Below, piece by piece: positions 12,933-13,781 of a DNA stretch of 16,684 bases; positions within the stretch are counted from its first letter, which is position 1, and every line of letters starts with the position of its first letter. Origin of the DNA: a virus (Duplodnaviria; Heunggongvirae; Uroviricota; Caudoviricetes). The position numbers and the translations under genes are program-made. The stretch is from IMG/VR virus record IMGVR_UViG_2526164618_000010; one strand, written 5' to 3'. The notes under the pieces are model-generated. The model saw only the letters and a program-made list of their open reading frames with translations. It did not search any database and had not been told where the DNA came from.

Positions 12933-13781
12933 ATGTTGAATGTAGCTATTGAAAACCAGAACGGGTGGAATTATAGTGCACCTGCACCTCATAAAACGGG
13001 TGCCGGGATTGCTACCCCGACGATGACTACTGCGCATAACCGCGCTCAGGCGGTTTTTTTATGCGTCAAGCACAGCCACATTCAGATTATGGTGGGGCGT
13101 GCAGGGCAGCCGCAAGGCTGGCCGGTTTCGGTAGTCACCGGTTGTAGCAACCCTGTGCGTCTCACCACCCATGAGATTGCTACCTCTGGTGGTGAGTCAT
13201 TTAAACTGACTATCGAGGCTGCCATCATGGCTACTATCCTTACCCTTTCTCACCCTGACGCAACCATCGAAAATGGTCGCGCTGTCACTACGTCTGTTGC
13301 GGTTGCGGAGTTCTTCCGGAAAATGCACAAAAACGTTATTCAGAAGATCGAAACTCTCGAATGCTCGCCGGAGTTTAACCGGCTTAATTTTAAGCCCGTC
13401 ACCTATACCGACGCCAAAGGCGAAAAACGCCCAATGTACCAAATCACCAAAAACGGCTTCGTTTTCCTGGTGATGGGCTTCACTGGCAAAAAAGCCGCCG
13501 CATTCAAGGAAGCCTACATTGCTGAGTTCGACCGCATGGAGGCCGAACTGCGCCAGAATAACACCCCACCTGCAGACAAGATGATTCCGGGTGATGGTCG
13601 CACTCTGGTTGTTCACTTCGACAAATTCGGCAATGTCGAATTCACCGAAACCGTTCCTGATGGCGCACTGGTCTGTACCCTGGAGACTTTCCGGTTTTAT
13701 CTGGAAAAACAGGGATGGACTCTTGTTAACCGGGGCGCAATTAAAAATATGACTGTGGAACAATTACTTTCTTTAAAATAA
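12933..13781 (+). CDS. Rha-family phage regulatory protein with an uncharacterised N-terminal extension of about 100 aa
   Basis: C-terminal half …RAVTTSVAVAEFFRKMHKNVIQKIETLECSPEFNRLNF…RPMYQITKNGFVFLVMGFTGKKAAAFKEAYIAEFDRMEAEL is a classic Rha domain. Frame is open from 12825; ATG at 12933 follows GAAAGGAAAGAG. An alternative start at 13227 (MATILTL…, GAGG upstream) would give a 184-aa Rha-only protein. Confidence 0.6.
   Translation: MLNVAIENQNGWNYSAPAPHKTGAGIATPTMTTAHNRAQAVFLCVKHSHIQIMVGRAGQPQGWPVSVVTGCSNPVRLTTHEIATSGGESFKLTIEAAIMATILTLSHPDATIENGRAVTTSVAVAEFFRKMHKNVIQKIETLECSPEFNRLNFKPVTYTDAKGEKRPMYQITKNGFVFLVMGFTGKKAAAFKEAYIAEFDRMEAELRQNNTPPADKMIPGDGRTLVVHFDKFGNVEFTETVPDGALVCTLETFRFYLEKQGWTLVNRGAIKNMTVEQLLSLK

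What the first reader, a model, noticed from the sequence alone, without database searches (positions are those of the whole stretch)
12933..13781. Rha-domain protein with an unrecognised N-terminal extension of about 100 aa, occupying the dicB position
The frame is open for 98 codons upstream of the Rha domain with a good SD at 12933, which is unlikely by chance. The extension (MLNVAIENQNGWNYSAPAPHK…VKHSHIQIMVGRAGQPQGWPVSVVTGCSNPVRLTTHEIATSGGESFKLTIEAAI) has no family I recognise. Rha proteins are regulators or anti-repressor-like factors that interfere with lysogenic infection; a novel fused domain could add a sensing or effector function.
Basis: partly seen in the sequence, partly recalled or inferred. 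Interest (0 to 1): 0.4.

Follow-up and report, generated by a model that had tools for sequence, protein, structure and literature searches.

The report
RNA immunity switch inside Rha gene
The supposed new 100-residue domain in front of this prophage Rha antirepressor is the read-through translation of a known antisense-RNA switch (promoter, IsrK-like small RNA, C4-like RNA and their target sites) that controls the Rha start codon, so it is an ordinary member of the phage P4 / P1 / Gifsy-1 type of RNA immunity module.

Summary
The 282-codon ORF (12933-13781) exists. Its first 98 codons are not an unknown domain. They match Pfam Phage_ASH. They also contain, on the same strand: a sigma-70-like promoter (12949-12977); an IsrK/seqA-like sRNA with terminator (12984-13060); a C4/CI-type antisense RNA (13085-13172); and the C4 target sites a2/b2, of which b2 covers the Shine-Dalgarno of the conserved internal ATG at 13227. 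C4 stems and both RNA-RNA pairings covary strongly across relatives. The leader shows no third-codon-position excess, while the Rha part does. Even so, 42 of 43 distinct Rha-linked leaders have no stop in this frame, against 3.0 and 4.6 stops per leader in the other two frames. Start codons also recur just upstream of the promoter in different sequence contexts. This matches the phage P4 eta/kil arrangement of nested genes. In that model the short Rha (from 13227) is made from the internal promoter under RNA control. The long form would be translated only from an upstream promoter, mainly to carry ribosomes through the terminator. That last step is inferred. Verdict: new member of a known kind, low-to-moderate interest.

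The parts
12933..13781 (+). Long ORF (282 aa, 'Ash-Rha'), the counterpart of P4 eta. It starts 5' of the internal promoter, so it can only be translated from transcripts that begin further upstream.
   Evidence: ORF; PF10554 at aa 14-107, PF09669 at aa 119-203; frame kept open, recurrent upstream starts in relatives; PGAP annotates this long form in E. coli.
12949..12977 (+). Internal sigma-70-like promoter, TTGAAA - 17 bp - TATAGT. It is placed to start transcription at about 12984 and corresponds to PisrK of Gifsy-1 and PLE of P4.
   Evidence: It is the only promoter-like site in 12500-13900 (10 of 12 matches). Hexamers sit at the same fixed distance in 42/43 Group I and 51/59 Group II leaders. 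Positions TA.A.T are invariant or nearly so in alignment A1.
12984..13060 (+). IsrK-like / seqA-like small RNA (c4-a1b1 element). It has three hairpins, the last being an intrinsic terminator.
   Evidence: Rfam RF01394 isrK, 61.5 bits against gathering 50. The fold has three hairpins. DNA homology with phages starts at about 12984-12985, at the 5' end of this RNA.
13009..13015 (+). a1 site (TTGCTAC) in the loop of IsrK hairpin 2. It is complementary to a' of the C4-like RNA.
   Evidence: a1-a' helix 99.1% paired, 6 of 7 pairs with changes on both sides.
13024..13032 (+). b1 site (TGACTACTG), complementary to the b' loop of the C4-like RNA.
   Evidence: b1-b' helix 90.3% paired, 9 of 9 pairs with changes on both sides.
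13038..13060 (+). Intrinsic terminator of the IsrK-like RNA: a GC-rich hairpin followed by T7.
   Evidence: terminator scan.
13085..13172 (+). C4 / CI-type antisense RNA (the STnc1160 position in Gifsy-1). A long outer stem encloses two hairpins.
   Evidence: Rfam RF01695, 75.7 bits against gathering 45. MFE -48.3 kcal/mol, z = -5.1. On 22 relatives 97.3% of cells are paired, 15 of 27 pairs change on both sides, and 0/500 shuffles reach this.
13126..13137 (+). b' loop (TTTCGGTAGTCA) of the C4-like RNA.
13144..13150 (+). a' segment (GTAGCAA) of the C4-like RNA.
13089..13226 (+). Counterpart of Gifsy-1 orf45. The AUG lies in the 5' stem of the C4-like RNA. Here it is in frame with, and runs straight into, the Rha ORF.
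   Evidence: ATG 13089 in frame. PMC4825925 places the first AUG of orf45 at nt 107 from the TSS, which equals 13090 +/- 1 here; the downstream ATG is at +138/+141 in all Rha-linked leaders.
13177..13183 (+). a2 site (TTGCTAC), identical to a1. It lies in the loop of the hairpin CUCACCACC...GGUGGUGAG.
13207..13218 (+). b2 site (TGACTATCGAGG). All 12 nt can pair with the b' loop. Its last four bases are the Shine-Dalgarno (GAGG, 13215-13218) of ATG 13227.
   Evidence: In the MFE fold of 12984-13240 the b' region is paired with b2.
13227..13781 (+). Short Rha-family protein (184 aa), the gene placed directly under C4 control. It occupies the position of P4 kil, P1 icd/ant and Gifsy-1 anrP.
   Evidence: PF09669 at 108 bits and TIGR02681 at 115 bits. 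GAGG-N8-ATG context, near-identical across the Rha-linked leaders and also present in P4. Third-position excess begins here. phi191 is annotated from this ATG.

Best explanation
The region is a P4/P1/Gifsy-1-type antisense-RNA immunity module embedded in a pair of nested genes.

Shown from sequence and comparison:
- A promoter at 12949-77 lies inside the long ORF.
- It is followed by an IsrK/seqA-like RNA (12984-13060) that carries sites a1 and b1 and ends in an intrinsic terminator.
- Next comes a C4/CI-type RNA (13085-13172) that displays a' and b'.
- Then come sites a2 and b2. Site b2 includes the Shine-Dalgarno of ATG 13227.

Inferred by analogy with P1 c4, P4 CI and Gifsy-1 IsrK:
- Transcripts from the internal promoter mostly stop at the terminator and give the small RNA.
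- Read-through transcripts yield the C4-like RNA. It pairs with a2/b2, blocks ribosome binding at 13227 and so keeps the Rha antirepressor-type protein off.
- The small RNA, through a1/b1, competes for the same C4 loops and can release the block.

Inferred from frame conservation and from P4 eta:
- The long frame from 12933 is translated only when transcription comes from an upstream, repressor-controlled early promoter.
- Ribosomes then run through the terminator and the C4 region. This makes expression insensitive to the RNA control and prevents termination.
- The 98 extra residues would then be a by-product of that read-through, not a domain selected for its amino-acid sequence.

In this window the upstream operon is cut by an IS3-family element, so the long form is probably not expressed here.
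For: - RNA elements: Rfam hits above gathering for isrK and C4, on the ORF strand and inside the 'extension'. The same pair occurs in 15 of the 18 related loci scanned; L010 has isrK/c4-a1b1 only, and L011 and L017... for the table (Gifsy-1 and P4 both carry the pair).
- C4 structure: 97.3% paired, 15/27 pairs with changes on both sides, 0/500 shuffles.
- Pairing with targets: a1/b1-a'/b' is 94.3% paired with 15/16 compensated pairs. a'/b'-a2/b2 is 78.9% paired with 14/19 compensated pairs. For both, 0/500 shuffles reach the covariation score. Sites sit at near-fixed offsets, with 6 a-types and many different b-types.
- Signals: promoter and terminator. The promoter is conserved in position in 93 of 102 distinct leaders.
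- Internal start: GAGG-N8-ATG, near-identical in the Rha-linked leaders and in P4.
- No codon periodicity in the leader, strong periodicity in Rha.
- Frame: open in 42/43 Rha-linked leaders, with 24 own ATGs 5' of the promoter and 15 fusions to upstream ORFs.
- Pfam Ash: the full profile matches the translation of P4 seqA-CI-seqC, that is the N-terminal part of eta.
- Literature: Gifsy-1 experiments (PMC4825925). P4 eta/kil model as summarised in PMC10111431.
Against: - Nothing here is experimental for this element. The TSS, the termination, C4 processing and translation from either start are all inferred.
- Lack of codon periodicity does not strictly exclude a functional peptide, because RNA constraints act on all three codon positions.
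- The stop-avoidance statistic treats stop positions as independent although the leaders are related and b1 and b2 are copies of each other. Halving the count still gives P about 8e-4.
- In the Gifsy-1-type leaders (59 distinct) the frame is not kept open, so read-through translation is not a general property of the module.
- The primary P4 paper (Forti 1999) could not be read here.
Confidence: 0.72

Rival explanations
1. The 98 residues are a true folded or functional protein domain (Ash) fused to Rha. It adds a sensing or effector activity, and the RNA matches are secondary.
For: The frame is kept open in 42/43 Rha-linked leaders. Start codons with SD recur upstream. PGAP and Pfam treat it as protein. 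The literature lists 'Rha/Ash domain proteins' of unknown function in Stx phages (PMC8951638).
Against: - No third-position excess (0.214/0.240/0.237, p = 0.38), against p = 0.0002 in Rha.
- Amino-acid identity is 0.53-0.57, against 0.69 in Rha at the same nucleotide identity.
- The variable 'residues' coincide with the a/b RNA pairing sites, which covary as RNA.
- The same translation is attached to at least four unrelated C-terminal parts, or ends alone.
- The frame is broken in Gifsy-1, Arsenophonus, phi191 and ZX5 with the RNA elements intact.
- In P4 this stretch holds the established RNA immunity factor.
- The AlphaFold2 model has no secondary structure across most of aa 10-120, but the whole model is poor.
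Confidence: 0.07
2. The long frame is never translated. It is open only because the conserved RNA sequence happens to lack stops in that frame. The only protein is the 184-aa Rha from 13227.
For: The 12933 ATG lies 5' of the predicted TSS. There is no codon periodicity. Some annotators leave the leader unannotated or start Rha at the internal ATG. In P4-like satellites and Gifsy-1-type leaders the frame varies freely.
Against: Stops arise at 47 distinct positions in the other two frames. In the ORF frame there is one stop-bearing leader, the phi191 type, whose IsrK-to-C4 distance is one base shorter. This includes the hypervariable a/b sites, where RNA conservation cannot explain the absence of stops. 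Indels in the group sum to multiples of three. ATG plus SD recurs at -156 to -186 in at least five unrelated upstream contexts, and 15 leaders are fused to upstream ORFs. P4 eta is reported to be translated, with functional consequences.
Confidence: 0.18
3. Translation begins at the AUG inside the 5' stem of the C4-like RNA (13089, the orf45 counterpart). This would give a 230-aa isoform as the main regulated product, as with orf45-anrP coupling in Gifsy-1 or the in-frame Ant1/Ant2 pair of P1.
For: orf45 is translated and needed for anrP expression in Gifsy-1. Here the AUG at 13089 is in frame with Rha in all 43 Rha-linked leaders, at +138/+141.
Against: No SD-like sequence precedes 13089 (cattcagattATG). 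The AUG is buried in the C4 outer stem. This start does not explain why the frame is also open across the IsrK part and the promoter: 0 stops there, against 21 distinct stop positions in the other two frames. orf45-like ORF lengths vary from 15 to 46 codons in Group II.
Confidence: 0.15

Closest known systems
Phage-plasmid P4 immunity region: PLE - seqA - CI RNA - seqC - kil, nested in eta
   Same: - Same order of elements. P4 gives isrK-like and C4 Rfam hits (L022 886-963 and 1071-1158).
- a/b sites are complementary to the cognate C4 loops.
- The downstream start context GAGGCTGCCATCATGGCTAC and the first ~11 codons are shared (MATTLTPSHPEF against MATILTLSHPDA).
- A long frame starts upstream of the internal promoter and ends with the short gene.
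- Pfam Ash matches the translation of both leaders.
   Different: - The cargo here is a 184-aa Rha-family protein, not the 65-aa Icd-like Kil.
- P4 has 84 extra bases between seqA and CI.
- The host element here is a Rac-like lambdoid prophage, not a satellite.
- Among the P4-like satellite leaders sampled, the frame relation between the C4 AUG and the downstream start varies. In the Rha-linked group it is fixed.
- The functional statements for P4 come from the literature and were not tested here.
Salmonella Gifsy-1 isrK - orf45 (STnc1160) - anrP locus (Hershko-Shalev et al. 2016, PMC4825925)
   Same: - isrK and C4 Rfam hits at the same spacing (L012 1398-1474 and 1500-1583).
- A promoter at the same place.
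- IsrK pairs with the region that Rfam calls C4.
- The cargo is an antirepressor-like protein that triggers prophage induction.
   Different: - In Gifsy-1 a stop lies directly before the C4 AUG, and orf45 ends in an AUGA overlap with anrP, in another frame (+134). Here the frame is continuous from 12933 into Rha.
- AnrP shows no significant similarity to this Rha protein.
- Gifsy-1 places the locus after the Q antiterminator gene. Here it follows a DicF remnant in the early operon.
Phage P1/P7 immI operon: c4 - icd - ant
   Same: A C4 antisense RNA whose a' and b' pair with a1/b1 upstream and a2/b2 downstream, with the downstream sites covering the ribosome-binding site of the first gene. Immunity types differ by coordinated changes in all three sets of sites. 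This is my own knowledge of P1/P7; the three-way covariation itself is shown here.
   Different: P1 has icd between c4 and the antirepressor, and has no long ORF running through c4 (own knowledge).
'Rha/Ash' or Bro-network proteins of Stx phages and PICIs (PMC8951638; PMC10111431)
   Same: The same Pfam architecture, PF10554 + PF09669. PMC10111431 already notes CI and seqA homologues inside such genes in PICIs and refers to the P4 eta model.
   Different: PMC8951638 treats Ash as a protein domain of unknown function. The data here indicate that it has no detectable amino-acid-level constraint.

Membership tests
C4 / CI antisense RNA (Rfam RF01695; P1 c4, P4 CI) | Sequence and structure match to the family model above the curated score | tested here: met
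   75.7 bits against gathering 45, full length 1-87.
C4 / CI antisense RNA (Rfam RF01695; P1 c4, P4 CI) | Outer stem plus two hairpins supported by compensatory changes | tested here: met
   97.3% paired, 15/27 pairs changed on both sides, 0/500 shuffles, slid controls 36-44% paired.
C4 / CI antisense RNA (Rfam RF01695; P1 c4, P4 CI) | Two exposed segments (a', b') complementary to target sites both upstream (a1/b1) and downstream (a2/b2) | tested here: met
   Runs of 7 and 9-12 nt in the window. All 16 loci show it at near-fixed offsets. Covariation.
C4 / CI antisense RNA (Rfam RF01695; P1 c4, P4 CI) | Downstream target overlaps the ribosome-binding site of the first regulated gene | tested here: met
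   b2 at 13207-13218 ends with GAGG, 8 nt before ATG 13227.
C4 / CI antisense RNA (Rfam RF01695; P1 c4, P4 CI) | Mature RNA excised from a longer transcript (RNase P at the 5' end) and acting to block translation or cause termination | not testable with these tools
   Needs Northern blots, RNA-seq and genetics.
IsrK / seqA / c4-a1b1 element (Rfam RF01394, RF03163) | Match to the family model above the curated score | tested here: met
   isrK 61.5 bits against 50. The overlapping c4-a1b1 model scores only 18.9 against 46.7 here, so membership rests on the isrK model.
IsrK / seqA / c4-a1b1 element (Rfam RF01394, RF03163) | Own promoter and Rho-independent terminator giving a short RNA, with partial read-through | tested here: inconclusive
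   Promoter-like and terminator-like sites are at the right places and conserved. Transcription itself was not observed.
IsrK / seqA / c4-a1b1 element (Rfam RF01394, RF03163) | Hfq binding and trans-activation of downstream translation | not testable with these tools
   Shown only for Gifsy-1 (PMC4825925).
P4 eta/kil-type nested genes | Long ORF that starts upstream of the internal constitutive promoter and ends with the short, RNA-controlled gene | tested here: met
   12933 lies 16 nt 5' of the -35 hexamer. It is in the same frame as 13227-13781.
P4 eta/kil-type nested genes | The long frame is maintained in relatives | tested here: met
   42/43 Rha-linked leaders are open. 24 have their own ATG 5' of the promoter and 15 are fused to upstream ORFs. 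This does not hold for Gifsy-1-type leaders.
P4 eta/kil-type nested genes | Translation of the long frame from an upstream regulated promoter prevents termination and escapes RNA immunity | not testable with these tools
   Literature for P4 only. The primary paper is not held.
Pfam PF10554 Phage_ASH | Profile match above the gathering score | tested here: met
   75 bits against 26, aa 14-107, profile positions 1-104 of 107.
Pfam PF10554 Phage_ASH | Evolves as a protein domain (purifying selection on residues, foldable) | tested here: not met
   No codon periodicity and low amino-acid identity relative to nucleotide identity. The full profile matches the translated P4 seqA-CI-seqC region. The AlphaFold2 model is uninformative.
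Rha family (PF09669 / TIGR02681) | Profile match above the curated scores | tested here: met
   107-108 bits against 29.9; 113-115 bits against 45.95.
Rha family (PF09669 / TIGR02681) | Acts as an antirepressor or regulator of the lysis-lysogeny decision | not testable with these tools
   Inferred from the family name and from the position equivalent to anrP and ant.

The most novel reading that the evidence does not exclude
The Ash segment could be truly dual-coding. Besides carrying ribosomes through the terminator, the peptide encoded by the hypervariable a/b pairing sites would give the long Rha isoform a property specific to the immunity type. Examples would be recognition of its own RNA or of a cognate repressor. 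RNA immunity type and protein specificity would then be physically coupled in one stretch of DNA.
Probability: 0.05. Interest if true: 0.6.

Novelty: new member of a known kind. Interest (0 to 1): 0.28.

Why it matters
- It corrects a tempting misreading. The Ash 'domain', which is annotated in thousands of E. coli and Shigella prophage Rha genes and described as being of unknown function in Stx-phage papers, is best understood as the translation of an RNA switch. The long ORF is best read as an eta-like read-through frame.
- It shows that the P4 logic of nested genes around an antisense-RNA immunity module probably extends to Rha antirepressor genes of lambdoid prophages. A match to the 1.2-kb query that includes this region occurs in 4654 of 5426 complete E. 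coli genomes, often several per genome.
- The many a/b specificity types imply a set of heteroimmune RNA switches that control antirepressors, and hence cross-talk between prophages during induction, including Stx phages.
- For annotation, the regulated start is 13227, and two RNA genes are missing from standard protein-only annotation.

Tried and rejected
- AlphaFold2 on the 282-aa ORF with a 30-row alignment gave mean pLDDT 39 (27-42 over aa 1-110) with almost no secondary structure in the extension. The Rha part was also poor (45-56). I treat the model as uninformative, not as evidence of disorder.
- The protein search with the 98-aa extension returned only 48 hits, mostly truncated at contig ends. 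It could not give a census of architectures. It did show the same translation joined to several unrelated C-terminal parts.
- The first viral-contig pattern (5' part of C4) gave 12 loci, of which 5 were GC-rich false positives. A second pattern (3' stem and a2 hairpin) gave the usable sample.
- The genome-contig scan with the Rha protein gave only 8 loci.
- I first read the leader as purely non-coding, from the RNA hits, the internal promoter and the absence of codon periodicity. The stop-codon and start-codon surveys made me drop that as the main explanation.
- I considered Gifsy-1 AnrP as an orthologue of this Rha protein and rejected it, because there is no significant similarity.
- Forti et al. 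1999 (PMC94026) is not held. The P4 eta/kil statements rest on the summary in PMC10111431 and on my own recollection.
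Full report
**Observation**

The ORF is as described. ATG 12933 opens a 282-codon frame that ends at 13781, and the frame is open back to 12819. Pfam places the Rha domain at aa 119-203. There is an internal ATG at 13227, 98 codons downstream of 12933. The extension is not without a family: aa 14-107 match Pfam PF10554 (Phage_ASH) at 75 bits. PGAP annotates this long form as 'Rha family phage regulatory protein' in Rac-like prophages of E. coli. The window is identical over the Rha part to Shigella flexneri and E. coli chromosomes.

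**What lies inside the extension**

An Rfam scan at curated thresholds places two RNA families on the ORF strand inside the 98 codons. One is isrK at 12984-13060 (61.5 bits). The other is C4 antisense RNA at 13085-13172 (75.7 bits).

The only sigma-70-like site in 12500-13900 is TTGAAA-17-TATAGT at 12949-12977. It is placed to start transcription at the 5' end of the isrK match. A hairpin followed by T7 at 13038-13060 ends that match.

DNA similarity to phage genomes begins at about 12984-12985, at the 5' end of the isrK match and not at 12933.

The same isrK + C4 pair was found in 15 of the 18 related loci scanned, in front of different genes:
- Rha proteins
- Gifsy-1 anrP
- P4 kil
- an Ant-type antirepressor in phage ZX5
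- a small gene in P2-like phages
- an Arsenophonus Rha relative

**RNA-level evidence**

On 22 C4 sequences the Rfam structure is 97.3% paired. Fifteen of 27 pairs have changes on both sides, no shuffle of 500 reaches this, and slid controls are 36-44% paired.

The exposed segments of the C4 element are complementary to two pairs of sites.
- b' is 13126-13137 and a' is 13144-13150.
- a1 (13009-13015) and b1 (13024-13032) lie in the IsrK-like RNA.
- a2 (13177-13183) and b2 (13207-13218) lie downstream of the C4 element.

All 12 bases of b2 can pair with the b' loop. Its last four bases are the GAGG that sits 8 nt before ATG 13227.

Across 16 loci these sites keep near-fixed positions while their sequences differ: 6 a-types and many different b-types, each matching its own C4. 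Counted formally:
- a1/b1 with a'/b': 94.3% paired, 15 of 16 pairs changed on both sides.
- a'/b' with a2/b2: 78.9% paired, 14 of 19 pairs changed on both sides.
- For both, 0 of 500 shuffles reach the covariation score.

This is the three-way specificity pattern known for P1/P7 c4 (my own knowledge). In the fold of 12984-13240 the b' region pairs with b2.

**Is the extension coding?**

Two tests give answers that seem to conflict.

Test 1, substitution pattern. Among 37 distinct Rha-linked leaders, nucleotide diversity by codon position is 0.214/0.240/0.237 (permutation p = 0.38). In the adjoining Rha codons it is 0.252/0.208/0.471 (p = 0.0002). At equal nucleotide identity (about 0.70), amino-acid identity is 0.53-0.57 in the leader and 0.69 in Rha. 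There is therefore no detectable selection on the amino-acid sequence.

Test 2, stop codons. In 43 distinct Rha-linked leaders, 42 have no stop in the ORF frame. The exception is the phi191 type, whose IsrK-to-C4 distance is one base shorter. The other two frames carry 3.05 and 4.58 stops per leader, at 20 and 27 distinct positions, including the hypervariable sites. The binomial P is about 9e-8, or about 8e-4 if the number of events is halved.

Start codons support the same reading.
- 24 of these leaders have their own ATG 150-190 nt upstream of the C4 AUG, that is just 5' of the -35 hexamer. They occur in at least five unrelated sequence contexts, some with strong SD sequences.
- 15 leaders run on into upstream ORFs, up to 1251 nt long.

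By contrast, 59 Gifsy-1-type leaders show no frame bias of stops (1.95/2.27/2.98 per leader). They usually have a stop directly before the C4 AUG, and their gene starts fall in any frame.

The frame is therefore kept open in the Rha-linked group, but the residues are not conserved.

**The known system that explains both results**

- P4. Pfam Ash matches, over its whole profile, the translation of P4 positions 874-1249 of locus L022. That stretch is the seqA/isrK-like element, the CI RNA and seqC. P4 epsilon belongs to a different family, PF25738. P4 kil, just downstream, is Icd-like. PMC10111431 summarises Forti et al. 1999 as follows. A constitutive promoter lies inside the long gene eta. Its transcript is terminated through the CI and seqA RNA interactions and yields the immunity RNA. 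Kil is the truncated form, translated after read-through. Full-length Eta is translated only from an upstream late promoter. Eta translation prevents termination.
- Gifsy-1. The locus was studied experimentally. Transcripts from the isrK promoter that read through the terminator are translationally silent. Short IsrK acting in trans activates translation of orf45 and anrP. A processed RNA (STnc1160) lies where Rfam finds C4. The authors note that orf45 is conserved as nucleotides but not as protein, and that IsrK resembles P4 seqA.

**Reading of the window**

- 13227-13781 is the RNA-controlled short gene.
- 12933-13781 is the eta-like long frame.
- The orf45 counterpart (AUG 13089) is here in frame with Rha.

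**Context**

The module lies in a decayed Rac-like prophage. The order of features is:
- ydaT and cro-like genes on the minus strand
- a cI-like repressor gene, 9945-10352
- an IS3-family element on the minus strand, 11157-12430
- a degenerate DicF match, 12698-12748
- the module described here
- a second IS, 14295-15424
- an inverted recE fragment, 15449-16093

In intact relatives the module follows ydaF, sieB, DicF and a DicB fragment, and it precedes kilR, ydaE and recE. The upstream promoter that would serve the long frame is therefore cut off here by the IS element (inference).

**What is shown and what is inferred**

Shown:
- the identity and structure of the RNA elements and their covariation
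- complementarity to the Shine-Dalgarno of ATG 13227
- conserved promoter and terminator signals
- absence of amino-acid-level constraint in the leader
- maintenance of the open frame and of upstream start codons in the Rha-linked group

Inferred by analogy:
- the transcription start
- processing of the C4-like RNA
- repression of Rha translation by that RNA, and relief by the small RNA
- translation of the long frame from an upstream promoter, and its anti-termination role
- the antirepressor activity of the Rha protein

**Verdict**

This is a new member of a known kind. It is not a novel sensing or effector domain. The useful by-product is an annotation point: the Ash 'domain' is the protein-level shadow of an RNA switch.

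Noticed in passing
window 5709-5884 (-): A strong Rfam match to the sok antitoxin RNA (117 bits against gathering 59). This indicates a hok/sok-type toxin-antitoxin locus in the same prophage. The nearly identical locus L001 has an annotated hokD at the matching position.
   Followed up: no
window 12698-12748 (+), also 12760-12902: A degenerate DicF match (28.6 bits, below gathering 48, E 5e-4) whose terminator-like hairpin lies at 12716-12743. A weak STnc100 match (29.9 against 47) follows. Relatives carry an intact DicF (L003 2489-2540) and a DicB fragment at this place, so the module sits where dicB would be.
   Followed up: partly
window 11157-12430 (-), 14295-15424 (+), 15449-16093 (-): Two IS3-family elements (HTH_Tnp_1 plus rve ORF pairs) flank the module. 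A fragment of exonuclease VIII (recE) lies inverted after the second one. The ydaE-like ORF after Rha looks shortened (about 34 codons from ATG 13799). The prophage is heavily rearranged.
   Followed up: partly
L022 (phage P4) 874-1249 and 1403-1690: Pfam PF10554 'Ash' matches the translated seqA-CI-seqC leader (the N-terminal part of eta), not epsilon. P4 epsilon matches PF25738. A survey of P4-like satellites used PF10554 as its epsilon marker (bioRxiv 10.1101/2021.03.30.437493). That marker therefore detects the RNA immunity region next to epsilon.
   Followed up: partly
window 13215-13258; L022 1201-1244: The first ~11 codons of Rha (MATILTLSHPDA) and the preceding SD are shared at 88.6% DNA identity with P4 kil (MATTLTPSHPEF) and with Icd-like proteins. 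The boundary at which different cargo genes are swapped therefore lies inside the cargo ORF, about 35 nt after the start codon.
   Followed up: partly
L007/L008 against L004/L005 (same Shigella flexneri and E. coli genomes): The same chromosome carries a second Rha-linked module with different pairing sites (a = GTGGAAA, b1/b2 = TTACTCGAG/TCACTCGAG). This points to two heteroimmune RNA switches in one cell. In that copy the Rha ORF is cut to 111 codons. Several viral contigs (for example L024, L038, L088, L139) also hold two modules.
   Followed up: no
L018 2223-2306; L009 645-728 and 2059-2145: Rfam sRNA-Xcc1 matches (62-80 bits against gathering 53) lie close to the module in phage phi191 and, twice, in the Arsenophonus contig. 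Their relation to the module is unknown.
   Followed up: no
L013/L014 841-1995, L017 846-1169 and 1141-2004, L106, L111, L144: In mEp460/SfV-type phages the module sits between cII-like and replication genes. The open frame there continues 300-1250 nt upstream, sometimes as one annotated 383-aa 'antirepressor' and sometimes split in two. The upstream ~116 residues match no Pfam family.
   Followed up: partly
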